A stretch of 64,000 bases of DNA, taken from the IMG/VR virus record IMGVR_UViG_3300033388_002430, positions 1,997-65,996 of that record; one strand, 5' to 3'. The notes beneath the pieces are model-generated. The model saw only the letters and a list, made by a program, of their open reading frames with translations. It had not been told where the DNA came from and ran no database searches. This DNA comes from a virus (lineage: Duplodnaviria > Caudoviricetes). Positions 6,998 through 60,822 of the stretch are shown here, piece by piece (the stretch's first letter is position 1; every line of letters begins with the position of its first letter). The position numbers and the translations under genes were made by a program.

Positions 6998-7331
6998 TCT
7001 TTATCTCCGCTAAACTCTTTCCATTTTCTAATTTATTCATGATTTTCAGTATCCTATTCCCATTAGTAACACTGTGTCTGGCTAGTCCAAACACGTCTAC
7101 ATCTTCCCATCGTTCCCAGAGAGGCAAATATTTTCTATATTTCTTTTCCAGGTACTCAGCAAACTTTACCGCCTCATCTCGATCACTGAATGGAGAATTT
7201 ATTAGCTTTCTTCCAGTCCTGACCTTATAGATAAAAGCATCTTGAGTAACTGCTAAATATTCACCTACTCTGATACCCTCTCTTTTCTGTGAACAATTCG
7301 TAGTTTTATCGGTGAAAGTTATTATCTGCAT
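6981..7331 (-). CDS. hypothetical protein
   Basis: ORF overlapping primase start. Confidence 0.55.
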   Translation of the reverse strand: MQIITFTDKTTNCSQKREGIRVGEYLAVTQDAFIYKVRTGRKLINSPFSDRDEAVKFAEYLEKKYRKYLPLWERWEDVDVFGLARHSVTNGNRILKIMNKLENGKSLAEIKNELSR

Positions 7332-7871
7332 TGTTTATCATATCATATTTTTATTTTTGTAAGATTAAAAATTACTCTTAATTAACGATTAATTTAGTAA
7401 TCTCATAGATCATATAGATACCAAATACAATTACTAAGAACCATCTATAATCTAATTTACTATTCATCTCTTTTCTCCTGTCTCATCTCTTCTTCCCAAT
7501 ATTGATATTCCTGTTCTCGTTCTAATATCTGATGTTCTTCTCTTTCCTGTTGTTGTCTCTCATATCTCTCAGAATCTTCATCATAATATCTCTGTTTTTC
7601 CACGATCCGGCTGATACAATTAGCCGGAAGTACACAATAGGGTCTGGGAAAATCTGGCCTACTCATTCTTCTTTCTCCTCTAATCGCTTATCCCAGACCT
7701 CATCACTAATAGGCTCTCCATACACATCGTAAAGACTGCGTGTTGTTAGTTCTTTTTCTTCTCTTTCAAGGTTGTCAAGCCTCTCTTGCTTGAGTATATC
7801 GTTGCCAAGCGACATCATTCACCCTCCTCTGCTAGTTCCCAAGGATATCCATTCGCCTGATAATCGTGGTC

Positions 7872-7973
7872 TTATTCACATTCATCAGCTTCTTCTTCTA
7901 AAAAATAGGCTGCGCCACAATAGTTGCAATGATACATTTGTTCTTCAAATTCTCCCTCTTTTGTGTAAACCAT
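7872..7973 (-). CDS. 33-aa CxxC micro-protein (MVYTKEGEFEEQMYHCNYCGAAYFLEEEADECE), not in ORF track
   Basis: ATG overlaps stop of 7973..8317; its MVY start matches the internal MVY of 676..1113 at DNA level. Confidence 0.55.
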   Translation of the reverse strand: MVYTKEGEFEEQMYHCNYCGAAYFLEEEADECE

Positions 7974-8317
7974 CATTCACCTTCCTTTGGCGGAGTAGGG
8001 AGAGCGTATTCCCATAATTTCGGATTTCTCAAAAAGCGTTCTAGCTTCCGAATGGGCACGATATACGAATTAGTGTATTCTTTTTCTGGTTCACAAGCTC
8101 TTTCAACCCATTCAACTAATTGGTCAATCGTTACGGTTACGTCTGACGGTTTTGCCAGCCTATGCCTTCTACCGTCAGTTCCGTAAATAAACCAATCATC
8201 CGCTTCATCTTCCCCCTCTTGTGCGGCGAGGAGTTGTTCAAGTTCACTTGTTGTTACGGGAGTCATACGTGACCTTGAAAGTTTGTCGTACTCTTTTAGT
8301 ATCGCTTGTGTGTTCAT
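7973..8317 (-). CDS. mosaic protein, NTQAILKE family copy 2
   Basis: Shared DNA and protein blocks with 676..1113. Confidence 0.7.
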   Translation of the reverse strand: MNTQAILKEYDKLSRSRMTPVTTSELEQLLAAQEGEDEADDWFIYGTDGRRHRLAKPSDVTVTIDQLVEWVERACEPEKEYTNSYIVPIRKLERFLRNPKLWEYALPTPPKEGE

Positions 8318-8524: not shown

Positions 8525-8536
8525 ATATCCACTAAA

Positions 8537-11849: not shown

Positions 11850-13303
11850 TGCTCACTCTCCTCTAGGGTATATAACTCATTGCCCATTCACCGAAGCCAA
11901 ATAACAAATTATTCACTTCCCGGCTTTGATAAATATATTCGCCGTATTTATCATTCAATTTTCTAAGCTCTTTTTGCCCAAAATTTTCATATAAACCTTT
12001 AGACTTTGCCTGACCTATGAGTTTAATTTTATATTTCCTGATATCACTTCGCAGGTTTGATACAGCATTTTCAGGTACTCCATTCATGATAAACTCTCCT
12101 CTTTGCTGATATTAGTATATAAAAGTTTCTTATTTGCTGGTAGTGATAAATGTCACATTAATTTATTACTTTCGGCTTAACACTGTGTTATTCGCAGGAT
12201 AAAGCCACAGCTTCACCAGATATATCAATACTATTTGGGGCTGGTGTTAGTTCGATTTGCACAGATTTTCCACATTTTAAGCATTCGCAATACGCATATT
12301 TAGACCAGGAATGACGCCCCTCGATCCATTCACCCATTACATGGCCTCTTTGCTTTGTGGCTTGCAACGCTTCAGATTTTAGATCATTAAATTTATCCAT
12401 TATATCTACCTTTGCTAGTGTATTATTACCCCACTAGCAGGGATATAAAATTAACTATTCCATTCCTGGATCATTTGCTGACCCTGTTTTGTTCTCTTTA
12501 ATTTACTATGAGCTTTTACAGATAATTCACCACCACTTGATCTATAAGCTATGAGATACTCCTGTAATAGCTTATTAGCCTCTTTGCCTGTTTGCACTTC
12601 ATCAATAATCTCAGGATCATTACCAGGATATTTATATACGATATATTTAAATTCGTTCATTTTGCCCATCCTCTATATAAAATAGATAATCCGAATAGAT
12701 CCAGGGAATAATTCATATACGGATAATATTCCCATATATCTACCTTAAATTTAGATCCATATCGCCATAGTTTAAGTCCCCATAGTTGGAATAGTAAATA
12801 TCTATCATCTTTGAACGTAATACAGATCTGTTTATAGCCCTTACACTGTGATTTTTCTATGTTCATTGCATAAGCTCCACATAATCCGTATTATCTAAAA
12901 AATATTGAGCTTCTTTACTACTTATTTTTTGTACAATATCTTTACAATAATAAGCTCCAATAGATCTGCCATAAAGATATTCATATCTTAATCGATGGAT
13001 TGCTGTCATACCTATTTGTGGCCCCTCTTTATGTCTAGATTTTAATCCTTTAATCATTCCCTCAAAGATGTATTGAACTGTGAAAAGTTTAGCGGCAATA
13101 TTCTTTGATATTCCACAAGTCGAATCTCTACCAGATCTATGTTGTTTTTCAGATTCCAGAGATAATTTATATATCTTATTCCTGTACGCTGTCCAGGTAT
13201 AGTTATTCAAGATATGGAGCTTATCATAGTACTCATTAATAAGATTTATTTGTTCTTTTTTATTCATTGTATTAACTCTCCTCTATTCTAATAGTCTGAT
13301 TTA

Positions 13304-13789: not shown

Positions 13790-15370
13790 AATATACTCTC
13801 CTCTATTTGCTGGTTTATTTGCACACTTTCCAGAACTTTATATAGCCGTTTACACGTGTTTTTATTGTGATATCGCCGGATCTATGATTAATAACCTTTT
13901 CAACTATAATAGGATAGTTAGGATCAATTCCTTGCTTTGCACGGCATTCTGATCCTGGAGTAGGTATAGACCTATTACAGAATGATACTAAATCATAATC
14001 AGGATCATTGCATAGTCGTTTATATGTATTATTCATGTGCTGTATCCTGGTTTAATAAGGATTGCTTATATTCTTTGAGATAATAGTATATTAATTCAAT
14101 ATCCCCGTTATAAAGCGTGGTTCTTGCATGGTTATTCTGTGTTGATATTGTGTTATCTCGAATTATCCTAAATAAAATATTTATGTTATCTATTCTTATT
14201 TTATCCCGTGACATTGTATTTTATCCTTATAATGCTATGTTTTTATTTATGTCCTAACATATAATAATTTATAGCAGTTAATAGACCCTCTTGAGTACTG
14301 AAAATGGCAGATTTTTTACCTTGTTCAGATATAGCATAATAATTACCGTCATCAGTCTGGTATATGTCAAATCCCATATAATTAGTTATTTGTTCATCCA
14401 TGTTTATATACTCCTTATATAACACTGTGTTTAGTAAATTGATGGATTAATCGCCGTTATTCTGAAATTATCAGGTATTACCCGATTATTCTTATCCAGA
14501 ATATGTACCAGGAGCATTCTATAGCAAGTAGGGCCATAATACAGATATCCGATTATTCTACCAGCGTTATATCTGATCTGGATCTTATCGGGTTCGGTGC
14601 ATATATTAGTTATCTTAACCATTTTATTACCTCTTTTTATAATAATTCTTTTATTATTTGATTTGCTTCAATTCCATAAGTATTAATAATATAATCTGAT
14701 GTGCTTGTACCATCAGGAGTATTTAACCATGTATCAAATTCAACTATATCAAGGCCAAATATATTATCAAAGAATTTATTAAGTGGAATATTAAATATTG
14801 ATTCAAATTCTAGATAGTATGCTTTATACATTCTTTTCATTTTATCCATTCTTTTTTTCATAGTATTACCTCTTATTTGCAGGTTAAATTATAATAACAC
14901 TGTGTTTGTAGGAATTATTTATACTGGTAATAAGTTATCTCCTCTGATCCATATCCGGGTATTATCAAGGGTTATTACCATATAACCATTACCCACACCG
15001 GCATAGTACCAGGCATAAAATCCTGTCAAGGTGACTATAGAATTATATAAATGATCTGGTAGGTTCTGGAATGAGAGTACTTTACATCGGATATCTTTAC
15101 GTTTAGGATTATATCGGATCTGATTATGGTTAGGTATGTGCATAATATAGCCTCATTTAATAATATTTATGATATAAATGATAAAATTCAATTTATATAA
15201 TATTGGATCTTTAAATGTCCCAGGGATATGAATAATGTTTTATTATATGTGGGTAATTTTACGTACCATTTAGAATAAGAATGATAAGATATAGTTATTC
15301 GTTTATGATCCAGCAATAGTTTATACATATAAGCTCCTTATTAGTATACTGACCCAATAGAATAATACCG

Positions 15371-15772: not shown

Positions 15773-16825
15773 TGTATACGCTCCTCTAAACACAGTGTTT
15801 ATTGAATTATGTGACGTAAAGCCGTGTTCATATGGCTATCGTTTAAATAATCGTACAATCCGGTAATAAATGAATAATCCTCTTTATTGTTATTACGTGA
15901 CCAGTCACATGTTATATGGTATATATCCCAGTTATAACGCGTCTCACTAATATCATAATCAGAACGTGGGCCTATGTTGTTACGTCCAATAGCATCTGTT
16001 ATTAGTACTTCCAATCTAGCATAATCAGTCTTATTTATTTTCATTTTATCCTCATTGTTTATAAATAGTTCGATATACTTCCATTGCTTCAATCCCATCA
16101 TCCAGGAATATTACATCAGCCCTGATATACTCCTTAGTTTCTTGATGTATTCTTACAATCCGCGCGATACCTTCAAATTTCAATTCAGTGAAGGGATCTT
16201 CATATACTCTTACATTAGTTCCAATTAATTTGTTCATTCTATACCTCACTTGATAAGATTGACAATATCCTGGATCATAGTAGTACTACGAACCAGGAAC
16301 CATAGAATATATAAACTAATCCCGGTAACAACTAATTGTGGCAGTTTATTAATAAGCTTCATATTGACATACTCCTTGGAGTTTAATTGACTCTGATAAC
16401 GTTAAATAAGATTCACACCCTAGAATAGTTATATCGGATCTGAATTTATACTTATCCAGGATGGCCCTAAACTTGTCAATTCCCGCTATGATGTGATAAC
16501 TATTCTTATCCTGACAATCCTCCTGTAGTACTAGTCTATAATACATATAAGCTCCTCATAACACAGTGTTTATTCTTACTATTATAGTATCATAGGTTAT
16601 GTAATATGATGTCATAAATAATTAAGTCGAATGTCATAAAACATATGTTCTATAATATCCCCCTGGTAGGGCCCTGGATAGAATAGTATGTATAATAAGT
16701 ATGATATTTATAATAAGTATTATATAAGAGGATAGTTAGAATGTGTGAGCTACCGAGGGATATATAAGAGTGTAGAATAGCGGTAAAGCGGAATGACATC
16801 TGTAGAGTATGCACGGGCAATAGTT

Positions 16826-18658: not shown

Positions 18659-19387
18659 TTATTCCTCAACAGATCTGACAGAGAATAGCGGAGTATTATA
18701 CGATCCTTTTTCTACTACGCACCATTTCTCTATGGTTTGCAGATTTCTACAAATACATTGTAGGGCTGATCTTTCATGAGCATAATGTAATGATCCCAAA
18801 GCATCTATGATTTGTTTCCCAGAACTCTTAGGATTCTTAGCAAGATACTCCTTGATTTCCAGCATTGATTGTTTATATCGAGTCCAATATCCCCCACCAC
18901 GTGTCCCCGCCACTCCATAGTTATCGACCAATCCTGTATTTATCAAATCGAATAATCGTTTCTTAGTACTTATCCAATGAGATTGAGTATTATTCAGATC
19001 ATACCTAACACTGTGTTTTACAAATATTGATGAGTATTCTCCTAAGTAATGGGTCTGCACATGTCCAGATTTAGAAACAGTCATACTACTAATATTCATC
19101 TCCTTACCCAAATAGCCTATCCAGAACTGATGATTATTACTAGCACTATCCGATTCAACCCTGGGAAAAGCTATGGTACGGAAATCCACATCCCATTTAT
19201 AGGCTTGCCTAATCACATTTAGAGATAGAGTCGTTTTTAATTCTATGATCCATATCAAATCTTTTAATACACAAACAATATCAGCTACTTTACCGCCTCT
19301 CGGAGATAACTCTTGATATATCTTCCAGTCAGGTCTATTCTTTTCCAGCCATTCAATTATTGTTTTTCCCAGATCAGTCTCTTTCAT
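18659..19387 (-). CDS. PD-(D/E)xK nuclease-like protein
   Basis: YQE...ADIV...IIELK. Confidence 0.6.
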   Translation of the reverse strand: MKETDLGKTIIEWLEKNRPDWKIYQELSPRGGKVADIVCVLKDLIWIIELKTTLSLNVIRQAYKWDVDFRTIAFPRVESDSASNNHQFWIGYLGKEMNISSMTVSKSGHVQTHYLGEYSSIFVKHSVRYDLNNTQSHWISTKKRLFDLINTGLVDNYGVAGTRGGGYWTRYKQSMLEIKEYLAKNPKSSGKQIIDALGSLHYAHERSALQCICRNLQTIEKWCVVEKGSYNTPLFSVRSVEE

Positions 19388-21650: not shown

Positions 21651-21911
21651 TTATAAAGAACCAAACCTAAACCAAATTATTTCCGTCTTATTACTCGGAT
21701 GACTATCTATATGAATAAATTTGAAATCTTCCCAAGAATTATAAATACCCAGACTAGAAACACCGTGTTTATCAATATCTGTTCTCCAACATACAATTAC
21801 CTGTCCAGTATGAAAAACAATACCATCTAGGACTCTGCCAGTTCCACTAACTCCAGATTCATCCTGATTTCTCACCACTGTAAATAGTCTGGGTTCTTTA
21901 CTCATAACCAT
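21651..21911 (-). CDS. conserved phage hypothetical protein
   Basis: RxxDESGVSGTGxV.xG motif common in phages. Confidence 0.6.
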   Translation of the reverse strand: MVMSKEPRLFTVVRNQDESGVSGTGRVLDGIVFHTGQVIVCWRTDIDKHGVSSLGIYNSWEDFKFIHIDSHPSNKTEIIWFRFGSL

Positions 21912-22927: not shown

Positions 22928-23227
22928 TTTCCTCCTCTGAATACGATTCGATATGACATACGTAAAATTGATCGTTTTGAACGTCTCCAGATCTTTTTAG
23001 CGTTTGATCTTTTTGTTCCAGAATCTACAGCACTAGTTATAAATTTTTTCCTGATATAAACGAAAAATGTCAGATAGCTGATAAGTATCGCACTGACAAA
23101 AATTGTTCCAAACGTTATTAAAAGTATTTTAAACATTTTAATATTTCCTTTTAATTAATATATTAATTAAGTATTTATTTAATTATTATTTAACTCTTAT
23201 TAACCCTTTACAGTTTTAATAACTTAG

Positions 23228-23256
23228 ATTATAATCATAAATGTAAGAACTGTCAA
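23228..23256 (-). promoter_or_regulatory. consensus sigma70 leftward promoter
   Basis: TTGACA (23256-23251) -17 nt- TATAAT (23233-23228) at the divergence point. Confidence 0.8.
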
Positions 23257-23289: not shown

Positions 23290-23676
23290 ATGCCATTAAC
23301 AAGACATAGAGAATTACAAATGGATGAAAGTGAATGTTTTCATCTCTGGCTGGAATTAGGAGCTTTGAGTAAGGTCAGTAAGAGATTATTCAATGAGGGT
23401 AAATATAATCAAGACACTGGAAGGCCATTTACTCCTGGTGGGATTAGAAACTCTGCGTTACGATACATAATTTATAATCCAGATGATGCTTTTGCAAAGA
23501 TGAAAGAAGTTGATCCAGTATCTCCTTATTTGAAAGATGAAGAGACTTGGTATAGATATTTGATTCGTCATGCCATAGAAGTATTTCATAATCGAGCCAA
23601 TGATGCTGATATTTTTGCTTGGGCTGAACAATATAAGATTCCACAGAGATATATAGATGAAGCATTGGACATCTGA
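23290..23676 (+). CDS. putative DNA-binding protein, first gene of the rightward arm
   Basis: VSKRLFNEG..N..TGRPFTPGGIR resembles a recombinase-type winged-helix segment. Confidence 0.45.
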   Translation: MPLTRHRELQMDESECFHLWLELGALSKVSKRLFNEGKYNQDTGRPFTPGGIRNSALRYIIYNPDDAFAKMKEVDPVSPYLKDEETWYRYLIRHAIEVFHNRANDADIFAWAEQYKIPQRYIDEALDI

Positions 23677-23911
23677 AGAATTATCCCTTCTGGATCAGTT
23701 TAATCATAGATGTGTCAAATGTCAAAGATTGTGTGATACGATACATGAATGTGTTCCTAGAAGCCATGGCAAAGACTCAATGTTAATTGCAAATAGAGTT
23801 CCGATTTGTGCGAGTTGTCATGATTGGGCACATAGAGTGGGAACAAAAGTATCAGCTCCTATTCTATTAAATTTCAGAGCAATGAGGTTATCTCGATATG
23901 ACAATGACTAG
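23657..23911 (+). CDS. small HNH protein (terminase-associated)
   Basis: CxxC...IHE...N.VPICxxCH; directly upstream of terminase. Confidence 0.7.
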   Translation: MKHWTSEELSLLDQFNHRCVKCQRLCDTIHECVPRSHGKDSMLIANRVPICASCHDWAHRVGTKVSAPILLNFRAMRLSRYDND

Positions 23912-24452
23912 AAATGTATCACCTGCTCCGTATAGTCAGAACTATAAAAATTTAGCTTTTTATATCTGGTATCAAAATGGGCGACCATCAATGCCAGATC
24001 TTGCCCGTAAATTAGATGTGAGAGAGGATGGAACGAAGCCGGCACATCTTACTGTTGGTAAATGGAAACGAGATAATAATTGGGAGCAGAAAGCTGATGA
24101 GTTAGATCAAGAAGCGGCGATTCAGATTCAAAAGAGATTGATAGATGATAGAGTAAAGATGTTTGAAGAGCATGCCGAACTTGGTGAGGCTCTGAGAGTT
24201 GAGGCTCTTTATTGGTTAGGAGAACACGGTGTTACTACTGCTAATGAAGCTATGCGACTTCTAACAATTGCTGTAGATATAGAAAGAGAAAGCATTGGAT
24301 TATCTGACATTATTGCTAAGATTAAGGATATGGATGATAGTGGTTTGAAAGATAGAATTGCTTATTTGATGAAAAAGGGTAGATTGACCGATCTGGATAC
24401 AAAAACAGTAGAAAAAGGTGAGGATGTCGAATCAACTGAGTTTATTGAATAA
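23898..24452 (+). CDS. terminase small subunit
   Basis: N-terminal HTH with WKRxxNW; directly upstream of large subunit. Confidence 0.75.
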   Translation: MTMTRNVSPAPYSQNYKNLAFYIWYQNGRPSMPDLARKLDVREDGTKPAHLTVGKWKRDNNWEQKADELDQEAAIQIQKRLIDDRVKMFEEHAELGEALRVEALYWLGEHGVTTANEAMRLLTIAVDIERESIGLSDIIAKIKDMDDSGLKDRIAYLMKKGRLTDLDTKTVEKGEDVESTEFIE

Positions 24453-32984: not shown

Positions 32985-33185
32985 ATGAATGAAGTAAAAC
33001 CTGGAATTTCTACATCAGAATTTTGGCTCGTTATTGTAAACACAGTGTTGATGGTACTAGCCGCATTTAAACTTCTGGATCAGTCGGAAGTGGATCAACT
33101 CAAAGCTCTATTAGCTCCTTTCATTGGGGCATTGGTTCCGATTGCCCTGTATGTTTGGGGTCGAGTCAAAGTAAAGACATCTTAA
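32985..33185 (+). CDS. putative holin (2 TM)
   Basis: KPG..TSEFW N-terminus, two hydrophobic helices, basic tail. Confidence 0.6.
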   Translation: MNEVKPGISTSEFWLVIVNTVLMVLAAFKLLDQSEVDQLKALLAPFIGALVPIALYVWGRVKVKTS

Positions 33186-41132: not shown

Positions 41133-42282
41133 AAAAATAGTATGGCTAACTGATATGGACATAAATGGTAGTGGCTATCGTAATATTTCTATTCCTTTAT
41201 GTAGGGGGCTATCTGAAGCAGGTCATGATGTAAAGGTTATTGGTCTAATGTATAAAGGTGAGGAACATTTTGAGCCTTTTAGTATTATTCCGGCAAAGAA
41301 TTTGCAAGAATCTTTTGGCATGATTCATAATTTCAGAGAGATGTGGGATTTCGATGAATTAATTGTTGCTCTTGATATTCCTATTCAGGAAAGGATATTA
41401 GCAACATTTCCTAATAGATCATTCAAATATACTGGAATTTTCCCCATAGAGGCAGATCCACTAACAGATAGTTGGGCAATGCTTTTACAGCAGATGGATA
41501 GACAATTTATTATTTCTAAATTTGGTACTGAGGAGGCGTATTACGCAGGAGTTGGATCAGCGGAACATATTGAAATTGGCGTAGATACTGAATCTTGGAG
41601 ATTTCCAACGGGGGATGAGAGAGACCAAATACGATCTTCTTTTGGTCTATCTAAAGATACATTCTCTGTTCTAACAGTTGCGGATAATCAGGAAAGAAAG
41701 CATTTATCTCGTAGTATGGAGATTTTTGCAGATTTTTTATATGATTATCCAGGTGTGAATAGAAGGATTATTAAAGAAAAAAAATTATTACCCAAAATAG
41801 ATGCTAGATATTCTTTAGTAACACGGGAACATAATCCTGTGGGATGGCAACTCAGGGATTATGCAAGATATTTAGGAATACAGGCTCAATTTATGATATT
41901 TGAACGTGGCATAGAATTTAATAAATTTTGGTCATTATACGCTATGAGTGATGCTTTTCTTCTTACTAGCAAATCGGAAGGGCTTGGAATGCCTATTTTA
42001 GAGGCTATGGCTGTTGAACTTCCTTGTATTGCAACGAATTGTACAGGAATGAGGGAGAGTTTATCTGAGAACCGTGGATATCTAATAGATGTGGATTATG
42101 TCCATGTAGACCCCTTTGGAAATGGTAATAGATATTTTGCAAGTAGAAAACACGGTGTTGAATTATTGAAAAAAGTTCGTAGCGGAGAGTTGCCAGATAT
42201 TAAGAAAGCTAGGGAATATATAGAAACAAAAAAGTGGCAAAATGCTGTGAATCAATTATGTGGAGCAATAGAAAATGATTGA
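41110..42282 (+). CDS. glycosyltransferase family 4
   Basis: NQERK, EGLGMPILEAMA. Confidence 0.9.
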   Translation: MRRCSMNKKIVWLTDMDINGSGYRNISIPLCRGLSEAGHDVKVIGLMYKGEEHFEPFSIIPAKNLQESFGMIHNFREMWDFDELIVALDIPIQERILATFPNRSFKYTGIFPIEADPLTDSWAMLLQQMDRQFIISKFGTEEAYYAGVGSAEHIEIGVDTESWRFPTGDERDQIRSSFGLSKDTFSVLTVADNQERKHLSRSMEIFADFLYDYPGVNRRIIKEKKLLPKIDARYSLVTREHNPVGWQLRDYARYLGIQAQFMIFERGIEFNKFWSLYAMSDAFLLTSKSEGLGMPILEAMAVELPCIATNCTGMRESLSENRGYLIDVDYVHVDPFGNGNRYFASRKHGVELLKKVRSGELPDIKKAREYIETKKWQNAVNQLCGAIEND

Positions 42283-45443: not shown

Positions 45444-46220
45444 ATGACAGAAATGGTAAATATTGTTATCCCAGCTTGGAATGATTTTGAGTTCTTAACA
45501 CCGTGTTTAGAATCAATTCCAAAGGCTTGTCAAGACAATTCATTCTTTATTACGATTGTGGATAATGGAAGTGATAAGGCTAAAGCAGATAAATTTTATG
45601 GATATTTGAAAGATGAGGATTATATTCATGTCCATAGGAATAAAGAGAATATGGGTTTTCCTATTGCTTGTAATATAGGGGCAAAGAGAAAAGCATCTCC
45701 ACTTATTTTCTTTCTCAATGCTGATGTTGTTTTATACGAACATGCTATTGATAATCTTATAATGAGCATGGATGATCCAGAAGTCGGAATTGTGGGAATG
45801 AAATTATTATTTGCAGAAAACTCTCCACATGGACCAAATGGAAGGATTCAACATGCTGGACTAGCTATGGGTATTCGTGCTAATCCATATCATTTATTTC
45901 TAGGTTGGACAGAGGATAATCCTAAAGTAGTTGCTATGGATAATGCTTGGGCTGTTACGGGTGCGGCTCTGATGATAAGGAGAAGTTTATGGAATAAAGT
46001 TGGAGGATTTGATGAACAATATAGTCCGGGAACCTACGAAGATCTATCGTTATGCTTGACTATAAGTGAGTTAGGGTATAAAATTAAGATAAATATGGAA
46101 GCTGTTGGTACGCATCATGTTGGGCATTGTAAAGCTCAATTCCCACTAAATAGGAATCATCAAATATTTATGTCTAAATGGGGACAAAAGGTGAAATGGA
46201 ATGAATACAAATATCTCTGA
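45444..46220 (+). CDS. glycosyltransferase family 2 (rhamnosyltransferase-like)
   Basis: VDNGS, N.GF...CN.G, FLNAD, TGAAL, GGFDE, YED. Confidence 0.9.
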   Translation: MTEMVNIVIPAWNDFEFLTPCLESIPKACQDNSFFITIVDNGSDKAKADKFYGYLKDEDYIHVHRNKENMGFPIACNIGAKRKASPLIFFLNADVVLYEHAIDNLIMSMDDPEVGIVGMKLLFAENSPHGPNGRIQHAGLAMGIRANPYHLFLGWTEDNPKVVAMDNAWAVTGAALMIRRSLWNKVGGFDEQYSPGTYEDLSLCLTISELGYKIKINMEAVGTHHVGHCKAQFPLNRNHQIFMSKWGQKVKWNEYKYL

Positions 46221-53019: not shown

Positions 53020-55461
53020 ATGGGAATAACTCCGCAGGAACTTCAGCTTTTAGAGACTAGACCACATCGGACTAAATTGTGGCTATCAATTTATAATCCA
53101 AACACTGTGTTAGCTTGTCGTGTTAATGATGCTGGCATTGAGAAGGGTGCTAGAACAATTATATATGATAGTGTTACTGCTGGATCATATCTACTTGTAG
53201 AAAATGCCATGGTGATGTATGTAGGAAGTTCTGCTGGTGATGATGATCTGGGCAGAATTAGAGTACGAAGTATTACCGACACAGAGATTACAATTGCGGA
53301 GAACTCTCATATTGAATGGGAAGATAATTTATACCTGACCGTTGTAAATTTCTATGAAATAACTGCAATCTATCCTAGAATTATTCAAGATCCAGTAGAT
53401 GCTACAAAAGTTATTTTCTATAAAGATTATGATATTGAGTATACGGATCAGAATACAATTCTTGGTTCCTTTGTAAATATGGGGCCGCACTACGCCGGAT
53501 TTGTAGATGTTGCTACTGGAGAAGATGATATTTATTATTCTGCTTCGGGAACACATTATGTGGGAGTAAGCGGAACTACTCTGAGTTATTATTGGTGGTT
53601 TCAAGGGGGAGATCCTACAGGCTCACACAGTCATACCCCTGGTTACATTACTTATGATACTCCGGGGCATTACACAACCAGATTAGTTGTTAGTGGTAGT
53701 AATGGTGCTGGAGATTCTTCTTATCGTCACATATCTATTTATGATAAACCTGGGGAGGGTAGTAATGTTCCTGTTCTATCTTGGGAATTAAATTCTTTAC
53801 ATGGTGACAGAGAGAGTGGGGGATATACTGGTCAAATAACAATTCGTGAAGATATCCCCGAAGAGACAATAAAAGATGGTAGCCTTGTAGTTATCTTTGC
53901 AGAGGATTGGTACGGAGAGACCAAACAAAGTATTGGTGGAAATGCTCAAAATAGATCCAGCATTGTTTTTGCCGGATATATCATTGATGGAACAATAATA
54001 TATGATTGGCAAGATAAAACTGTAGATTTTTCTATTGGAAGTCCTACGGAGATAATGAAGAATATTGAAGGATTCTCCGTTTCTGTGGAGAGTAAAAATG
54101 TTCCTGTGACATGGTTTCAATTATATGATATGAATAATGAAAAAGCTCTATATCATTATTTGAGATGGCACTCCACAGTATTGAAAACAGCAGACTTTGA
54201 ATTTCCAGATGAGGATTTTAGAATCCAATATTTTGATTCTGATAGAGAATCTTTATATAGTGCGATCAATACCTTAATGGATGGAACTCTTCTGGGGAAT
54301 ATTGTTTCGGATCGTCAAGGTAAGATATGGGCAGAAATAGATACATCAGCTATTAACTCTCCGGCAACGTACAAAGAAACCTCTAAACTTATTCTAAGTA
54401 ATAGTGCGTGGCGTAGCTCACCCATAATTGAAGAACAACAAACTGCCATAGTTTCATATCTAGAGATGGGAGGTATATCATATCTTGGCCCACCTACCCA
54501 TGTATCCACTGCACTTATGTCAGAGGCTCCTGGTAGTGCTCCGAACTATCGTGGAAGGGTAGAGAGGCATCAAGGACTTGCCCTGACCTCTCAGGGACAA
54601 TTAAATACACTAACTGGAAATATACTTGCTTATAACAATGCTAGATATCCTTTTAGTACATATGCTTTATCTGGGAATTTTAGAAATTATGATATTGCTC
54701 CTCAATCACTTGTACCAATAACAATATCTCCTGAAGATACTCCCAGAAGAATTACATTTAATAATAAACTGTTTACAATTGAAGAAATGGAATTTGAATA
54801 TAATCCAGAAAGTGAAATATTTCTTTCCTCTATCGGAGCTACAGAAGTAACTAGTGGAGATGATGGAGAAACCATAATTATTCCTGCTGTGCCACCAACA
54901 TCAGGTGAAGATGGTGGAGGATTTAGTATACCGCCATTTATAGTTCCCCCATTTCCCACTACATATAGTCTAAATAATTACGCATCTGCTAGTGAACTGT
55001 CTTTTGGAGATTATCCAACAGATGATCCAAATTTCCCTGGATTTGATATTGATGCTGGAGAATGGGGAAGTGTTAGGATTCATAGTGGAATCTTAGGTGG
55101 CTCATATCCTGGTTGGAGACATAATATTGGGCGTAGTATTGGAAATAGTGGTAAGGGATATTGGGTTGCACAGTTTACTGGAAAATATCATGTAAATGTT
55201 CTATTTAATAATAGTGATTTAAAGGAAGTAACAGTTGCGTTATCTACTAATAATCTTGCGGATTGGACAGCAGTAGCACCAAACCAAAAAAGAGAGATAG
55301 CTAAATCTAGTGATTTGTACATTAATGCGGATTGGACTATTCATCTAACTGCTGGAACTTTTTTAACTGTTTTATTGTATAATGGAGATGTGGCTAATGT
55401 CCTTAGTGGGACTGTGGATTGTCACATTATGTTAATAGATTTATATCCGGGGACAGGATAA
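53020..55461 (+). CDS. tail tip/hub protein with PKD-like domain
   Basis: YYWWF.GG...ITY.TPG.YT.RL.V PKD-like signature; synteny. Confidence 0.65.
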   Translation: MGITPQELQLLETRPHRTKLWLSIYNPNTVLACRVNDAGIEKGARTIIYDSVTAGSYLLVENAMVMYVGSSAGDDDLGRIRVRSITDTEITIAENSHIEWEDNLYLTVVNFYEITAIYPRIIQDPVDATKVIFYKDYDIEYTDQNTILGSFVNMGPHYAGFVDVATGEDDIYYSASGTHYVGVSGTTLSYYWWFQGGDPTGSHSHTPGYITYDTPGHYTTRLVVSGSNGAGDSSYRHISIYDKPGEGSNVPVLSWELNSLHGDRESGGYTGQITIREDIPEETIKDGSLVVIFAEDWYGETKQSIGGNAQNRSSIVFAGYIIDGTIIYDWQDKTVDFSIGSPTEIMKNIEGFSVSVESKNVPVTWFQLYDMNNEKALYHYLRWHSTVLKTADFEFPDEDFRIQYFDSDRESLYSAINTLMDGTLLGNIVSDRQGKIWAEIDTSAINSPATYKETSKLILSNSAWRSSPIIEEQQTAIVSYLEMGGISYLGPPTHVSTALMSEAPGSAPNYRGRVERHQGLALTSQGQLNTLTGNILAYNNARYPFSTYALSGNFRNYDIAPQSLVPITISPEDTPRRITFNNKLFTIEEMEFEYNPESEIFLSSIGATEVTSGDDGETIIIPAVPPTSGEDGGGFSIPPFIVPPFPTTYSLNNYASASELSFGDYPTDDPNFPGFDIDAGEWGSVRIHSGILGGSYPGWRHNIGRSIGNSGKGYWVAQFTGKYHVNVLFNNSDLKEVTVALSTNNLADWTAVAPNQKREIAKSSDLYINADWTIHLTAGTFLTVLLYNGDVANVLSGTVDCHIMLIDLYPGTG

Positions 55462-58400: not shown

Positions 58401-60218
58401 ACAAGTGAATCAAATGCTATTAGTGATGCTTTTGGTAGGGCGGTTTATACTATTCCTGATGCTTTCAAAGGTGTTGGATTCCTGATCGGGGCATTTACAC
58501 TTAGAAAATCTGGTGCTACCTTCACTTATAATGGTGGAGATGCTTATCAAGATTTACGTGGATTTGTTCCTAACTCTACTGCTGGTACGGGTGCTGGTGG
58601 TTCTGGCATTACAGAGTTTACTACCTTAACAGATACTCCAAGTTCTTATATTTCAGAGGCTAAGAATGTTACAGTAGTAAATGCTGGAGAAACCGCTTTA
58701 GAGTTTAGCTCATTACTTGGTCTGGTAGATTTGACTAATCCTGATACTGATAGGATATATTTCTGGGATGATAGTGAATCAAAGTCTAATTGGCTCGTAC
58801 CGGATCAGCACCTATCTATTAGTGGAACCAGTCTATATGTTCTGGATGATTTCCTTCTGAATACTGGCGATACTATGGAAGGGTCATTTATCATAGATAA
58901 CACGGATACAGAAGCATTTCTGGTTCGTCTAGACGGTGATGGTGGAAATGTATTTATTATTGATACGACTAATGTAGAGATTGAGCTACATGCACTTACC
59001 GAGATACATCAGGTAGCGGATAGTGCGGGGCTAATTATTTATGGATATGATGATGTTAGTGCTTCAACCGTAGAGTTATCCATTGATTCTGCTGGTGATA
59101 CTCAATTAACTGCTACTGGCAATATTATAGTTAATCCAACGAATAGTGTAATCATAGATAACACGGCTATCGAAGCTTTACTCATAAGAAAAAATGGTGA
59201 TGGTGGTGATGTTTTCATTGTTGATACGACAAATTCTCTTGTAAAAGCAAGCGGAGATCTGAGACTAGGTGATGGTTCAGCGAAAGACATATCATTAGTT
59301 TTTGATGATGGAATAGATAGAAAACTTTATTGGGACGATAACGAAGGAACATTGAGAACAGATCAACCGTTTGTTGCAGATGGTGGATTACTTGCAGGTG
59401 CAACCGCAACTGGCGATGATTTTATAAAATTTGTTTATACACCGATTAACGACACGGCTGCAAATCTAATGAATTTTAGTTTTTATCCAACCTGCACAGA
59501 CGATTTATTAATAAGTCAGCGTGGAATGAACGTACTTATGCAGCCCACAATTTCTGCGGGAAAAGCAAATACTGGAAAATTATGGGCGATGCACCTCTCT
59601 AGCTTAGACAGGGGAGACATGGAGGGTGACCTTACAGAAATGAAAGCCGTAAACGTCCTTGCCGGAAAATACAACGATGGTGGAGGGGGAACAATTACTG
59701 ATGTTTACGGGCATGCTATAAAAATGTATTACCAAGTAGGAACAGTTACCAATGGTTATGGATTTTATATCAACGCCCCCTCAACTGGCGGAACCGTTAC
59801 TAATGAGTGGGCTATGTATATAGCAGACAACGCACTTAGTTATTTTGTTGGAGATATTTCTGCCCAAAACGTAACAGACAGAACGCCTTATTATGACGGT
59901 AATGCACTAGAAGAAATCAAAAAAATAAAAAGTGAAAACGAAAAGATTGACCACGATACATTACCGGATTTTGTTACTGTAAAAAGAAAAAGAAAAGTAG
60001 CACTAAAGAAAATTATCGTCCCAGATGATGATGGTGGTACACTTGTTGAGAAGGGAGAGACTATACACCAAGGAGCCGAACAACTAAAGAAGGGGGTTGA
60101 TTACGAGGAAATAGAAGTCAAGGAAAGAAATCTTGGCGCTATGATTTCAGTATTAACGTCAGCCGTTCAGCAACTTATTAGCAGAGTAGAAGAAATAGAA
60201 AAAGCCTCTTTGAAATAG
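55461..60218 (+). CDS. large tail fibre / receptor-binding protein
   Basis: Gly/Thr-rich, internal repeats, C-terminal intramolecular-chaperone-like helix (LTSAVQQLISRVEEIE); TAATG overlap sets the start at 55461. Confidence 0.8.
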   Translation: MGLGRHKFQRAFSTFSDTKRDEDIILSGILGLPTGIGQNTVEVESRTGFVYVRLRDNLNEVIQAYNDQVSPVYGLPVLITRDSVNKNYYRIVRRDVGRYDDWGSISPYLAKHGNQHRFKPEIGGGGDVVFVEGRQFVPLMLTPSGSSGSGNVIMEGSHFYTGGTWKWAGTTGTPDLLAYRPTNNKSTVILVYIDGADNNPKLIAGDEFDVSISGTAHIIPFLPPVPTSEDVPLGAIQLYSGTQRIAWEQIYDLRPYIVGSAFIPTGTYGHTIRDDGMDMSQRSHLNFIGENVWINDDPGNDETEVIISGSAGGGGDTRRVIKDEGVAEADRDNLNFIGNGVFINDDVGNNELEIIISGSSDKYGIRDGGAPQTPRNWLNFIGDGVIVNDDPANDEIEIIITGSTGGAAGNPAGINTYIQYNNSGSFGADSGLTWKWNDDFVHIYHILKADGQIQVFDGSQVLPSYTFVSDHNTGMYLDSFQVLGFVAGNHQVIRASTSEVDILKDLDMNNNDIINVKDLSVSGTSNLNGAGGVFVRGGDLTVETQLDMDENSIINIERLILDTTPATTGTSAGTIYWNDTEYTINIITGQGPVLQVGHEIYTLVYNNTGVQIDNGTAVYPVGAVGIYPSVAEADATYFNTVDKVVFMTTMDILDGQVGLTATFGKIHDIDTSGFNLGDTIYVAPDGTAVVNNLTNVRPEFPDYEIQLGGIVKVDAVDGIIELAIRDDLYNTVDNFWNGAIRESFDFRTVSTGGIVSGTLTAPTGTLTRDLTMMFSDGFTLLDTSPGASIVLTPGLDDTPQVNYIYIPRSTKVLTKSTSDWPTTEHIRIAEVLLQSAATTATDGALRNQNWNDHLASTISQQGHLSHIGARIRALSSEWHSGVAGTLSGAPSDVYISTTAGKVFQMHLQIFPAQDMSAGDKINVVNDSVSPYRSTANLNDITDDADGDTLNNRWFTLVIWGVANKSGETSHLMCNLPNGSYTSESNAISDAFGRAVYTIPDAFKGVGFLIGAFTLRKSGATFTYNGGDAYQDLRGFVPNSTAGTGAGGSGITEFTTLTDTPSSYISEAKNVTVVNAGETALEFSSLLGLVDLTNPDTDRIYFWDDSESKSNWLVPDQHLSISGTSLYVLDDFLLNTGDTMEGSFIIDNTDTEAFLVRLDGDGGNVFIIDTTNVEIELHALTEIHQVADSAGLIIYGYDDVSASTVELSIDSAGDTQLTATGNIIVNPTNSVIIDNTAIEALLIRKNGDGGDVFIVDTTNSLVKASGDLRLGDGSAKDISLVFDDGIDRKLYWDDNEGTLRTDQPFVADGGLLAGATATGDDFIKFVYTPINDTAANLMNFSFYPTCTDDLLISQRGMNVLMQPTISAGKANTGKLWAMHLSSLDRGDMEGDLTEMKAVNVLAGKYNDGGGGTITDVYGHAIKMYYQVGTVTNGYGFYINAPSTGGTVTNEWAMYIADNALSYFVGDISAQNVTDRTPYYDGNALEEIKKIKSENEKIDHDTLPDFVTVKRKRKVALKKIIVPDDDGGTLVEKGETIHQGAEQLKKGVDYEEIEVKERNLGAMISVLTSAVQQLISRVEEIEKASLK
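56265..56680 (+). repeat. three ~43-aa repeats in fibre (I.D.G.....R..LNFIG..V..NDD..N.E.E.II[ST]GS)
   Basis: Visible in translation; two more IIDNT..EA...R..GDGG.VFI.DTTN repeats near 58890 and 59150. Confidence 0.85.
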
Positions 60219-60231
60219 GGGGCTTGATTTT
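60202..60231 (+). terminator. hairpin at end of fibre gene
   Basis: AAGCCTCT / GGGGGCTT followed by GATTTT. Confidence 0.45.
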
Positions 60232-60426
60232 AGTTTTCCCTGTATACGGTACAACTTGATCCGTTGTATATAATAAAATAAATCTAAAAGATTGGAATGA
60301 AAAATTTAAACAAAAAAAAGAAGGTAGAGATATGGAAATTGAAGAATATATAACAGAAGATAATCCAAATACATTTCTAGCAAACCAAATTATATAATTC
60401 TAAATTAAGTATAGAGGAGAAATAAA

Positions 60427-60822
60427 ATGATGGAAAAACTATCATATCAGAAAATTCTTAATGCTTTTGATGCGTTTAGAAATGATCTGGCAGAGGCAAA
60501 ATTAGGATGGAAACTTAGTTTATATATTTCTAAAAATATAGATTATTTATCACCACATGTAGAGCATTATAATAAGGCAAATGCCGAAATCATTATGGAA
60601 TATAGTATTGAGACTGAAGTAGAGGGAAAAGTTGCAAGAGTAGTTGAATCTAAAAATATTGCTCAATTTCAAACAAATACTCAAGAATTGCTAAACACAG
60701 TGGTAGAAATTGATTATGATAAGATTGATATTAATTCTTTGAGTGTGCAAGATCAAGAAAAATTAGATGAATTTGTAACGCCTAAGATTCTACAGAGCAT
60801 AAAATATACATTCAAAGAATAA
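60427..60822 (+). CDS. conserved post-fibre phage protein
   Basis: GAGGAG RBS; helical protein typical of this position. Confidence 0.55.
   Translation: MMEKLSYQKILNAFDAFRNDLAEAKLGWKLSLYISKNIDYLSPHVEHYNKANAEIIMEYSIETEVEGKVARVVESKNIAQFQTNTQELLNTVVEIDYDKIDINSLSVQDQEKLDEFVTPKILQSIKYTFKE

What the first reader, a model, noticed from the sequence alone, without database searches (positions are those of the whole stretch)
7068..60704. Genome-wide palindrome AACAC-N-GTGTT in coding DNA and at early gene junctions
There are 13 perfect copies plus one-mismatch copies at 7068, 10085, 19651, 21064, 35500, 38786, 45095 and 60694. A rough composition-based expectation for perfect copies is well below one. 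The longest form is TAAACACAGTGTTTA (15787-15801). In the early array, copies at 14421, 15789 and 16560 sit directly upstream of a GAGG/AGGAG RBS, and those at 12179, 14421 and 15789 overlap the preceding stop codon. Elsewhere they lie inside structural and GT genes. Inference: the binding site of a dimeric protein, acting as a stoperator-like silencing network, a parS/matS/Noc-like genome-organising site, or a host-enriched motif the phage mimics. The early copies could also be cassette-exchange junctions.
Basis: partly seen in the sequence, partly recalled or inferred. Interest (0 to 1): 0.78.

Follow-up and report, generated by a model that had tools for sequence, protein, structure and literature searches.

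The report
Genome-wide palindrome sites in a phage
An uncultured tailed phage keeps 13 copies of one short DNA palindrome, even inside its genes; related phages keep their own versions, and the sites are most likely docking points for a small phage DNA-binding protein that has never been studied.

Summary
AACAC-N-GTGTT occurs 13 times in the window, against 0.02 expected. Eight copies lie in coding DNA in all three frames; a codon-preserving null gives 0.22. The half-sites alone are not enriched, and the sites do not fold as RNA.

The motif belongs to a lineage-wide family. Phages that share the capsid module carry 4-17 copies of their own odd-centred palindromes with the core ACA-N3-TGT. Examples are TTACACNGTGTAA, TGACACNGTGTCA, AAACAGNCTGTTT and TACATNATGTA. 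Other relatives carry none. Two orthologous sites are conserved while their flanks have diverged.

Dispersed sites occur only in genomes that encode the gp23290 family (window 23290-23676): 13 of 15 with it, 0 of 11 without. This 128-aa protein has a predicted helix-turn-helix. It has no annotation and is the first gene of the packaging operon.

A primase/helicase module co-occurs almost as well. However, two primase-bearing relatives without gp23290 have only a lambda-like origin iteron array. Phylogenetically independent contrasts are too few for a formal test.

I found no integrase, ParB or matching methyltransferase.

Best reading (0.45): the sites form an operator-like network for a dimeric phage protein, probably gp23290. 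Its function is unproven. The closest published analogue is the 17-bp palindrome of Cluster O mycobacteriophages, whose function is also unknown.

The parts
12179..12189 (.). perfect site AACACTGTGTT at an early gene junction; overlaps the stop codon of ORF 12188-12400(-)
14421..14431 (.). perfect site between the stop of 14431-14622(-) and the RBS AAGGAG of the next gene
14896..14906 (.). perfect site, intergenic, early region
15789..15799 (.). perfect site (15-bp form TAAACACAGTGTTTA, 15787-15801), between a stop codon and the RBS GAGGAG; part of a 29-nt cassette repeated at 16546-16574
16560..16570 (.). perfect site directly upstream of the RBS GAGGAG, at the end of a 290-bp intergenic region
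19007..19017 (.). perfect site inside early gene 18659-19387(-), frame 1
21759..21769 (.). perfect site inside early gene 21651-21911(-), frame 1
24223..24233 (.). perfect site inside the TerS-like gene 23898-24452(+), frame 1
27354..27364 (.). perfect site inside the portal gene 25923-27713(+), frame 0
33039..33049 (.). perfect site in small ORF 32985-33185(+), frame 0; the ORF itself is doubtful, so the site may be intergenic
42149..42159 (.). perfect site near the 3' end of glycosyltransferase gene 41110-42282(+). G015 has a site in the same alignment column; G003 and G027 have sites within 26 columns
45497..45507 (.). perfect site near the 5' end of glycosyltransferase gene 45444-46220(+), frame 2
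53101..53111 (.). perfect site near the 5' end of tail gene 53020-55461(+), frame 0
7068..60704 (.). span holding the ten one-mismatch copies, which start at 7068, 8943, 10085, 19651, 21064, 35500, 38786, 45095, 50911 and 60694
   Evidence: 23 sites with at most 1 mismatch against 1.18 expected
23290..23676 (+). gp23290: 128 aa, all-helical, with a predicted N-terminal helix-turn-helix. First gene of the rightward packaging/structural operon. Best candidate for the protein that binds the sites
23207..23235 (+). sigma-70-like promoter TTTACA-17 nt-TATAAT, 55 nt upstream of the gp23290 start codon (read by eye)
23657..23911 (+). HNH endonuclease (84 aa) between gp23290 and the TerS-like gene; context only, not the determinant
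23898..24452 (+). 184-aa TerS-like protein (HTH plus coiled coil; assigned by position and architecture). Its N-terminus resembles that of gp23290
6116..6997 (-). DnaG-like primase (zinc finger plus TOPRIM); rival candidate that co-occurs with the motif
5020..6180 (-). DnaB-like helicase adjacent to the primase; co-occurs with the motif but is also present in motif-free G005

Best explanation
AACAC-N-GTGTT is this phage's own version of a family of 11-15-bp odd-centred palindromes with the core ACA-N3-TGT. A clade of uncultured, apparently non-integrating tailed phages keeps these at about 4-17 dispersed copies per ~65 kb genome, under selection at the DNA level.

The sites are most likely recognised on double-stranded DNA by a phage-encoded dimeric protein. 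The best candidate is gp23290 (window 23290-23676). This 128-aa helical protein has an N-terminal helix-turn-helix like that of the neighbouring small-terminase-like protein, and it is read from a sigma-70-like promoter at the head of the rightward operon.

I infer that the bound protein acts as a genome-wide operator or roadblock network. The sites are densest between the small leftward early genes, wedged between a stop codon and the next ribosome-binding site. In 6 of 13 relatives a site also lies just upstream of the gp23290 gene. The flanking bases of the site co-evolve with the protein from lineage to lineage.

Shown: the enrichment, the selection in coding DNA, the conservation and drift among relatives, and the co-occurrence with gp23290.

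Inferred: binding, dimerisation, and the regulatory consequence.
For: 1. Enrichment. 13 copies against 0.02 expected. 8 coding copies against 0.22 under codon shuffling, maximum 3 of 500. All three frames are used.

2. The dyad is the unit. AACAC occurs 48 times against 43 expected and GTGTT 72 against 60, so the half-sites are not enriched alone. Five sites folded as RNA give 0 to -3.9 kcal/mol, no better than shuffles.

3. Lineage-wide family with drifting flanks:
- G003: TTACACNGTGTAA x7
- G029: TACACNGTGTA x10
- G016: TGACACNGTGTCA x9
- G043: TGACACNGTGTCA x10
- G019: AAACACNGTGTTT x11
- G020: AAACACNGTGTTT x10
- G021: AAACAGNCTGTTT x8
- G027: TACATNATGTA x10
- G012: TAACACNGTGTTA x4
- G015: AAAACANNNTGTTTT x6

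4. Purifying selection. Two orthologous coding sites in G019 and G020 are 12/13 and 13/13 identical, while their flanks are 28% and 60% identical.

5. Co-occurrence among 26 genomes or contigs. 15 are gp23290-positive, and 13 of these have dispersed ACA-N3-TGT palindromes. Of the other two, G045 has the related TGATACNGTATCA x3 and G047 has none. 11 are gp23290-negative, and 0 of these has dispersed sites.

6. Co-occurrence among 80 terminase-related loci. The 18 gp23290-positive loci (292 kb) hold 52 13-mer palindromes. The 62 negative loci (679 kb) hold 9, and 4 of those 9 are in two fragments cut just upstream of TerL.

7. The motif state is scattered on the capsid tree. G000 groups with the motif-free G001, G022, G002, G011 and G025.

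8. Decoupling from the primase. G006 and G023 have the primase and helicase but no gp23290: hhalign gives at most 4% probability for 43 G006 ORFs of 90-200 aa, and 0.5% for the 322-aa initiator gene. They have no dispersed sites, only a tandem iteron array.

9. The gp23290 structure. The AlphaFold2 model has pLDDT 87. Residues 8-60 match HTH DNA-binding domains weakly, at Z 4-5. hhalign to the N-terminus of the TerS-like family gives 83% probability, E 9e-6.

10. Sites upstream of gp23290. 6 of 13 gp23290 genes have a site within 650 nt upstream, against 1.63 expected (P 0.003; the window was chosen after seeing the data).

11. Intergenic bias. 46 of 138 sites (33%) in 10 genomes touch the ~5% of DNA that is intergenic.
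Against: - No binding or dimerisation evidence exists. The one complex-prediction job never ran.
- The primase co-occurs nearly as well: 12 of 14 primase-positive genomes have the dispersed motif. Only one lineage (G006/G023) separates the two genes.
- The formal independent-pairs test on the capsid tree has no power: 3 pairs on supported branches, sign test p 0.5. The association could therefore still be shared ancestry or linkage.
- gp23290 is very divergent, at 14-28% identity to G000 among the relatives found by the capsid gene, while the ACA/TGT core stays fixed. Motif classes do not map cleanly on its tree.
- G047 (34 kb, 42% complete) has gp23290 but no motif.
- G000 itself has no site within 1.5 kb upstream of gp23290.
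- All fold matches are weak (Z under 5.3; Foldseek found nothing at E <= 0.001).
- Sigma-70-like promoter matches in the early region are no more frequent than chance, 30 against 36, so a transcriptional role is not shown.
- The authors of the closest published analogue thought a transcriptional role unlikely for their repeats (PMC4351075, section 8 read).
Confidence: 0.45

Rival explanations
1. Replication-linked sites. The palindromes are recognised by the phage primase/helicase module. They could be head-to-head priming sites or helicase-loading sites that allow bidirectional starts at many places.
For: - The primase family is present in all 12 sufficiently complete genomes with the dispersed motif. 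It was found in none of the 9 gp23290-negative genomes that lack any such palindrome, apart from a weak 2e-8 zinc-finger hit in G046.
- The half-site 5'-GTGT(T/A/C)-3' resembles the recognition sequences recalled for the T7 (GTGTC) and T4 (GTT) primases. This is memory, not a tool result.
- Relatives G006 and G023 use a palindrome with the same core (GACAAGTTGTC) as origin iterons.
Against: - The half-sites are not enriched on their own, and a single-strand primase site needs no dyad.
- G006 and G023 have the primase but no dispersed sites.
- The G000-type primases lack the canonical TOPRIM 'EG' glutamate, carrying Y/F-G instead (alignment).
- G003 has an O-like initiator, yet none of its 14 sites lies in that gene.
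- G000 has no tandem array; its closest perfect sites are 475 bp apart.
Confidence: 0.17
2. Packaging-linked marking. gp23290, a relative of the small-terminase DNA-binding domain, binds the sites to mark or organise phage DNA for the terminase (several pac-like entry points or self-recognition), not to regulate transcription.
For: - gp23290 always lies just upstream of (HNH)-TerS-like-TerL.
- Its N-terminus aligns with the TerS-like N-terminus and weakly with the G20C small-terminase HTH, Z 4.5.
- One G000 site lies inside the TerS-like gene.
Against: - G004 and G005 have the same TerS-like/TerL type without gp23290 or the motif, so the terminase does not need the sites.
- Only G000 has a site in the TerS-like gene.
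- The intergenic bias towards early gene junctions is not expected for packaging.
Confidence: 0.12
3. Host-factor site. The palindromes are targets of a host DNA-binding protein (a global regulator or nucleoid protein) that the phage exploits or mimics.
For: No direct evidence. The core ACA-N3-TGT stays constant while gp23290 diverges strongly, which would suit a conserved host protein.
Against: - The motif is present or absent among phages with closely related capsid modules, and it follows phage gene content.
- The flanks differ between relatives.
- The host is unknown, so host genomes could not be scanned.
Confidence: 0.1
4. Restriction-modification, methylation or nicking target. The sites are recognised by a phage or host methyltransferase or nuclease (HNH).
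For: - Variable palindromic specificities among relatives recall restriction-modification diversity.
- G000 encodes a small methyltransferase-like protein (16861-17340) and several HNH nucleases.
Against: - Nuclease targets are normally avoided, not enriched.
- The methyltransferase-like gene is found in only 3 of 11 genomes.
- The HNH gene next to gp23290 is absent from the complete motif-bearing G020 and present in G021, which lacks the ACACNGTGT form.
Confidence: 0.05

Closest known systems
17-bp palindromic repeat of Cluster O mycobacteriophages (5'-TGTTCGGNNNCCGAACA; Corndog), PMC4351075 (abstract, matched passages and section 8 read)
   Same: - An odd-centred inverted repeat dispersed over the whole genome.
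- Copies in short intergenic regions, concentrated in the leftward early operon, and also inside genes (14 intergenic and 11 clearly coding of 34 in Corndog).
- Invariant arms.
- Absent from the host genomes checked.
- Thought to bind a dimeric protein; function unknown.
   Different: - Different sequence and arm length: 7-3-7 against 5-1-5 (core 3-3-3).
- 34 copies against 13.
- One uniform motif in five closely related phages, against a motif that drifts among distant relatives here.
- No candidate protein was singled out there; here one gene family co-occurs with the sites.
Stoperators of Cluster A mycobacteriophages (L5 gp71, Bxb1 gp69); PMC9283540 and PMC6550527 (search listing and abstracts only)
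   Same: Many copies of one short repressor site spread over a phage genome, beyond promoters; specificity evolves among relatives.
   Different: - Stoperators are asymmetric and oriented with transcription.
- They are bound by a monomeric immunity repressor of temperate phages.
- Here the sites are symmetric and two thirds are coding.
- No integrase was found in 12 of 12 genomes.
Asymmetric 22-bp repeats of T1-like phages (T1, Stevie), PMC4319613 (one passage read)
   Same: 16-20 copies of a short repeat in a lytic phage, of unknown role.
   Different: Those repeats are asymmetric, mostly intergenic and oriented with transcription.
Lambda-type origin iterons bound by an O-like initiator
   Same: A palindromic site for a dimeric phage protein that can lie inside a gene. 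Relatives G006 and G023 have exactly this, with the related core GACAAGTTGTC.
   Different: Iterons are 3-4 tandem copies at about 22 bp spacing in one place. The G000 sites are dispersed over 41 kb, and G000 has no O-like initiator hit.

Membership tests
Stoperator system (Cluster A mycobacteriophages) | Asymmetric site oriented with the direction of transcription | tested here: not met
   The site is a perfect palindrome. The central base shows no strand preference (A6, T3, G3, C1 on the transcribed strand).
Stoperator system (Cluster A mycobacteriophages) | Temperate phage with an integrase and an immunity repressor | tested here: not met
   PF00589 found in 0 of 12 and PF00239 in 0 of 12 motif-bearing genomes. 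No repressor-like Pfam or PHROG hit in G000.
Stoperator system (Cluster A mycobacteriophages) | Many sites beyond promoters across the genome | tested here: met
   13 perfect and 10 one-mismatch sites over 53 kb.
Dispersed palindromic repeats of the Cluster O type (descriptive class) | Odd-centred inverted repeat with invariant arms, many dispersed copies, in both short intergenic regions and coding DNA | tested here: met
   Compared with PMC4351075, section 8.
Dispersed palindromic repeats of the Cluster O type (descriptive class) | The same sequence (TGTTCGGNNNCCGAACA) or a related phage lineage | tested here: not met
   The motif is different. The phage-record searches with TerL and with two gp23290-family proteins returned no Mycobacterium phage.
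ParB-parS / Noc / matS genome-organising sites | A ParB-family (or MatP/Noc) protein encoded with the sites | tested here: not met
   PF02195 found in 0 of 12 genomes.
ParB-parS / Noc / matS genome-organising sites | 16-bp even palindrome of the parS type | tested here: not met
   11-15 bp with a single central base. The parS consensus is recalled from memory.
Lambda-type ori iterons | Three or more tandem sites at about two helical turns, within or next to an initiator gene | tested here: not met
   G000: the closest perfect sites are 475 bp apart, there is no array in 8400-9500, and there is no phrog_6493 hit. The feature is met in relatives G006 and G023.
Restriction-modification or methylation target | A cognate methyltransferase or nuclease that co-occurs with the motif | tested here: not met
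   The methyltransferase-like gene 16861-17340 is in 3 of 11 genomes. The HNH gene is absent from the complete G020. Methylation itself cannot be tested with these tools.
Primase recognition site (T7/T4 type) | A short single-strand recognition word used on its own | tested here: inconclusive
   Half-sites are not enriched alone (48 against 43; 72 against 60). Resemblance of GTGT(T/A/C) to the T7/T4 words is recalled only. The primase co-occurs with the motif.
Helix-turn-helix DNA-binding proteins (for gp23290) | A three-helix HTH fold | tested here: inconclusive
   The AF2 model has pLDDT 87. VIA Z is 4-5.2 to the HTH domains of a transposase, G20C TerS, a resolvase, DeoR and ParB. Foldseek found no match at E <= 0.001. 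hhalign to the TerS-like N-terminus gives 83%.

The most novel reading that the evidence does not exclude
The gp23290 family is a small protein resembling the terminase-small-subunit DNA-binding domain. The profile search found 446 members at E <= 0.001 in a library of 50%-identity cluster representatives from metagenomes. It has no PHROG, Pfam or PDB match.

The novel reading is that this family is a widespread, undescribed class of phage 'genome-marking' proteins. Each lineage would write 10-20 co-evolving palindromes into its own genes. The protein would use them to tell phage DNA from host DNA, or to couple replication (it travels with a primase-helicase module) with packaging, rather than to regulate transcription.
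Probability: 0.2. Interest if true: 0.8.

Novelty: new member of a known kind. Interest (0 to 1): 0.56.

Why it matters
Dispersed palindromes written into phage coding DNA have been reported before (Cluster O mycobacteriophages), but without a known binder or function.

This clade offers a natural experiment. Related phages either lack the sites or carry variants that differ in the flanking bases, and one unannotated gene family follows the sites. That makes the open question directly testable: one 128-aa protein, one 11-bp duplex, and ready-made specificity swaps (AACAC, TACAC, GACAC).

If the protein is confirmed, it would give a function to a sizeable family of phage 'hypothetical proteins'. 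It would also provide a model for how a DNA-binding protein and dozens of its sites co-evolve under coding constraints.

Tried and rejected
- HNH endonuclease 23657-23911 as the determinant. Rejected: it is absent from the complete, motif-bearing G020 and present in G021, which lacks ACACNGTGT.
- TerS-like and TerL genes as the determinant. Rejected: both are present in the motif-free G004 and G005.
- Helicase as the determinant. Weakened: it is present in the motif-free G005.
- Methyltransferase-like gene 16861-17340. Found in only 3 of 11 genomes.
- RNA hairpin reading. Rejected.
- Sigma-70 promoter scan of 11800-17500. 30 matches against 36 expected and no terminators, so it was uninformative.
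- Iteron or origin array in G000. None found.
- Close relatives of G000 for synonymous-site tests. Single-protein scans with TerL, DNA polymerase and the HNH gene found none in viral contigs.
- Widening the gp23290 set. The alignment was too diverse for the scan. Narrower alignments gave 1 viral locus and 8 mostly 1-5 kb metagenome contigs, which were of no use.
- Cultured phages with gp23290. No tblastn match in 50,697 records with two queries.
- Sequencing runs. None was listed, so read ends and expression could not be examined.
- Complex prediction for a gp23290 homodimer. The queue was full at every attempt and the job never ran, so there is no verdict.
- Independent-pairs test. Too few supported contrasts.
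- The uniform 11-mer statistic first flagged G006 (and G023 as borderline) as motif-bearing. Inspection showed tandem origin iterons instead.
- Literature strings for the motif. 15 papers held one of the six strings (14 listed), all through the 7-letter string CACNGTG alone (V(D)J signal sequences, insect systematics, one on neural-network motif learning); none concerned this motif.
- tRNA and Rfam scans of the window. Nothing found.

Full report
**Observation**

The window is bases 1997-65996 of a 65,996-bp IMG/VR virus record with direct terminal repeats. Dinucleotide-preserving shuffles give a mean of 0.02 and a maximum of 1. Allowing one mismatch gives 23 sites against 1.18 expected.

The expectation from the half-site counts (AACAC 48, GTGTT 72) is 0.054. 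So 13 of the 48 AACAC words are followed by N-GTGTT. The half-sites themselves are at their maximal-order Markov expectation, 48 against 43 and 72 against 60. The dyad, not the word, is what is enriched.

Five copies lie at junctions of the small leftward early genes. Three of them (14421, 15789, 16560) sit 2-4 nt before AAGGAG/GAGGAG on the transcribed strand. Three (12179, 14421, 15789) touch the preceding stop codon.

Eight copies are fully coding and use all three reading frames. I shuffled synonymous codons within each gene, which keeps the proteins and each gene's codon usage. This gives 0.22 coding copies on average, with a maximum of 3 in 500 shuffles.

Five sites with 10 nt of flank on each side fold as RNA at 0 to -3.9 kcal/mol, no better than shuffles. 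A 5-bp stem with a one-base loop is not a hairpin.

**The phage**

Genes run leftward from about 23136 to 1 and rightward from 23290 to about 61400.

The leftward arm holds many small unannotated genes. Behind them comes a replication block: a 264-aa unknown, a DnaG-like primase (6116-6997), a DnaB-like helicase (5020-6180), a family A DNA polymerase (1610-3289) and a UDG.

The rightward arm starts with gp23290. It continues with an 84-aa HNH protein, a 184-aa protein with an HTH and a coiled coil that I take to be the small terminase (from position and architecture), TerL, the portal and the capsid gene. Next comes a large glycosyltransferase and sugar-modification cluster (35392-46220), followed by tail genes.

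There are no tRNAs and no Rfam matches.

**Relatives**

Single-protein scans with TerL and the polymerase found nothing in viral contigs. The putative major capsid protein found 10 relatives, and a profile of it found 48.

None of the first 10 relatives has the exact 11-mer. An unbiased scan for enriched palindromes then showed that many relatives have their own versions:

| Genome | Enriched palindrome and copies |
|---|---|
| G003 | TTACACNGTGTAA x7 (ACACNGTGT x14) |
| G029 | TACACNGTGTA x10 |
| G016 | TGACACNGTGTCA x9 (TGACANNNTGTCA x16) |
| G043 | TGACACNGTGTCA x10 |
| G044 | TGACACNGTGTCA x4 |
| G019 | AAACACNGTGTTT x11 |
| G020 | AAACACNGTGTTT x10 |
| G012 | TAACACNGTGTTA x4 |
| G021 | AAACAGNCTGTTT x8 |
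| G027 | TACATNATGTA x10 |
| G031 | TTACATNATGTAA x3 |
| G015 | AAAACANNNTGTTTT x6 |
| G045 | TGATACNGTATCA x3 |

The shared core is ACA-N3-TGT, and the flanking and inner bases drift.

G001, G002, G004, G005, G011, G018, G022, G025 and G047 show nothing of the kind.

In a pattern search of 32 further records, ACACNGTGT occurred at least 7 times in 5 of them. The reversed control pattern occurred 0-3 times per record.

**Where the sites lie**

In 10 motif-bearing genomes, 46 of 138 sites (33%) touch intergenic DNA, which makes up about 5% of these genomes as I called ORFs. In G003, as in G000, the intergenic sites lie between the stop codon and the RBS of early genes.

Most sites are not positionally homologous between genomes. 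G019 and G020 do share two orthologous coding sites. There the 13-mer is 12/13 and 13/13 identical, while the 58 nt on either side are 28% and 60% identical. Four genomes have a site within 26 alignment columns of each other near the 3' end of the glycosyltransferase homologous to 41110-42282.

These results show selection on the DNA word itself, together with turnover of positions.

**What goes with the motif**

G000's early arm has no tblastn match in five relatives that share its structural genes. On the capsid tree, motif-bearing and motif-free genomes are interleaved, and G000 groups with five motif-free genomes. So the motif follows something outside the structural module.

I clustered the ORFs of 16 genomes and ran iterative profile searches. 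A richer profile, built from 148 library hits of a search that found 446 at E <= 0.001, sharpened the result. Two gene families track the motif.

Over 26 genomes or contigs (with for the weaker motifs):
- gp23290 is present in 15. Of these, 13 have dispersed ACA-N3-TGT palindromes. G045 has the related TGATAC form, and G047 (42% complete) has none.
- gp23290 is absent from 11, and none of these has dispersed sites.
- The primase is present in 14, and 12 of these have the dispersed motif.

The two primase-bearing exceptions are G006 and G023. A uniform 11-mer statistic flagged G006 (and G023 as borderline) as positive. Inspection showed 3 and 4 tandem GACAAGTTGTC copies at 22-23-bp spacing, inside a gene that matches DnaD-like/O-like replication initiators (phrog_6493, E 7e-35). 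This is a classical lambda-type origin, not a dispersed network.

G006 has no gp23290 homologue: hhalign gives at most 4% probability for 43 ORFs of 90-200 aa and 0.5% for the initiator, while positive controls score 96-98%. So the one lineage that separates the two genes favours gp23290 over the primase.

Other candidates fail:
- The HNH gene is absent from the complete G020.
- The TerS-like and TerL genes are present in the motif-free G004 and G005.
- The helicase is present in the motif-free G005.
- The methyltransferase-like gene is in 3 of 11 genomes.

An independent sample of 80 terminase-related loci agrees. There are 52 13-mer palindromes in 292 kb of gp23290-positive loci and 9 in 679 kb of negative loci. 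Four of those 9 lie in two fragments cut just upstream of TerL, where gp23290 would be.

One caveat matters. The formal independent-pairs test on the capsid tree finds only 3 contrasts on supported branches (sign test p 0.5). The association is therefore strong as a table but not demonstrated as independent events.

**The candidate protein**

gp23290 (128 aa) is modelled with confidence as seven helices, at pLDDT 87. Evidence on its fold and relatives:
- Foldseek finds no PDB match at E <= 0.001.
- The exhaustive aligner gives only weak matches (Z 4-5.2) of residues 8-60 to helix-turn-helix DNA-binding domains. These include an IS transposase, the N-terminal HTH of the G20C small terminase, Tn3 resolvase, DeoR and ParB.
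- The ESM Atlas gives weak leads (TM under 0.45) to the DNA-binding 'Recombinase' domain of serine recombinases.
- A profile-profile comparison aligns residues 14-55 of the family with the N-terminus of the neighbouring TerS-like family (83% probability, E 9e-6).
- The family has no PHROG match (1 of 60 members, at E 0.008), no PDB sequence match and no hit in 50,697 phage records.

In all ten genomes first examined, gp23290 sits directly upstream of (HNH)-TerS-like-TerL. In G000 it follows TTTACA-17 nt-TATAAT (read by eye).

In 6 of 13 genomes a motif site lies within 650 nt upstream of its start, against 1.63 expected (P 0.003; the window was chosen after seeing the data). G000 is not one of the six.

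The family is very divergent, and the motif classes are only partly clustered on its tree. By eye, the two residues at the start of the putative recognition helix repeat within motif classes: RN in G000 and G020, AM in G029 and L168, and W(K/S) in G043 and G044. There are exceptions (G019, G003, G016). This is a lead, not a result.

**Lifestyle and rival families**

No tyrosine integrase, serine recombinase or ParB was found in 12 motif-bearing genomes (0 of 12 each); the control genomes scored as expected. This argues against a prophage-silencing stoperator system and against a parS-like system.

A sigma-70 consensus scan of the early region gives no more matches than chance. A transcriptional role is therefore an inference from position only.

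The replication rival rests on the primase co-occurrence and on a recalled resemblance of GTGT(T/A/C) to the T7/T4 primase words. Four points count against it:
- The half-sites are not enriched alone.
- G006 and G023 have the primase without dispersed sites.
- In G003, which has an O-like initiator, none of the 14 sites lies in that gene.
- The G000-type primases lack the canonical TOPRIM glutamate.

**Comparison with what is known**

The closest published case is the 17-bp palindrome of Cluster O mycobacteriophages. It has 34 copies in Corndog: 14 intergenic, mostly in the leftward operon, and 11 clearly coding. The authors proposed a dimeric binder, doubted a transcriptional role, and left the function open (PMC4351075, section 8 read).

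Stoperators are asymmetric and belong to temperate phages (PMC9283540 and PMC6550527, abstracts only). The repeats of T1 and Stevie are asymmetric and oriented (PMC4319613, one passage read).

No paper in the library holds the motif strings.

Earlier notes of this scan list several other phages with genome-wide palindromes, one of them GGACA-N3-TGTCC. These notes are unchecked; I used them only as a pointer to the Cluster O paper.

**Verdict**

The finding is real and is a clear case of DNA-level selection for a dyad site. It is a new member of the known but unexplained kind 'dispersed palindromes in phage genomes'. Two things are added here: a family of drifting variants among relatives, and a specific, testable candidate binder.

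I put 0.45 on 'operator-like network of a phage-encoded dimer, probably gp23290'. The remaining weight is split between replication-linked, packaging-linked, host-factor and modification readings.

Noticed in passing
L027 (G006) 9665-9720; G023 43972-44050: Three (G006) and four (G023) tandem GACAAGTTGTC palindromes lie at 22-23-bp spacing inside a DnaD-like/O-like replication initiator gene, between the primase and helicase genes in G006. This is a lambda-type origin within the initiator gene.
   Followed up: partly
G019 (L100-L103), whole record: A second, unrelated enriched motif, GAATTCNNNNNNGAATTC, occurs 13 times against 0.03 expected, beside the AAACACNGTGTTT sites.
   Followed up: no
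window 6116-6997 (-) and homologues in G012, G015, G016, G021, G027, G029: In the alignment, these DnaG-like primases carry Y/F-G where the G003/G006/G019/G020 group has the canonical TOPRIM 'E-G'. They also carry PD-x-(G/N)-EE in place of DxD. Their catalytic mechanism or activity may differ.
   Followed up: no
window 35392-46220: A block sits inside the structural operon and is conserved in relatives. It holds about ten sugar-modifying genes: RmlD-like and GDP-mannose-dehydratase-like enzymes, GT2 and GT4 glycosyltransferases, two methyltransferases and a sulfotransferase. An HNH and a DUF4406/deoxyribosyltransferase-like gene are inserted in it. This suggests virion or DNA glycosylation.
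   Followed up: no
window 15775-15803 and 16546-16574: A 29-nt cassette (site plus RBS, 90% identical) is repeated at two early gene junctions. It could promote recombination between junctions.
   Followed up: no
window 1-23136 and 60427-64000: The whole early/replication arm has no tblastn match (E 1e-4) in five relatives that share 25-73% identical structural proteins. This is strong modular mosaicism.
   Followed up: partly
G046 (L256-L258) and L182: Other terminase-related contigs have different strongly enriched palindromes. ATAANNNNNNTTAT occurs 18 times in a 41-kb contig of 59.5% GC, and ACGTNNNNACGT 11 times in 9.8 kb.
   Followed up: no
window 32295-33224: After the HNH gene 31434-32294 there are about 930 bp with only a doubtful 66-aa ORF. 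One motif site (33039) lies in this stretch.
   Followed up: no
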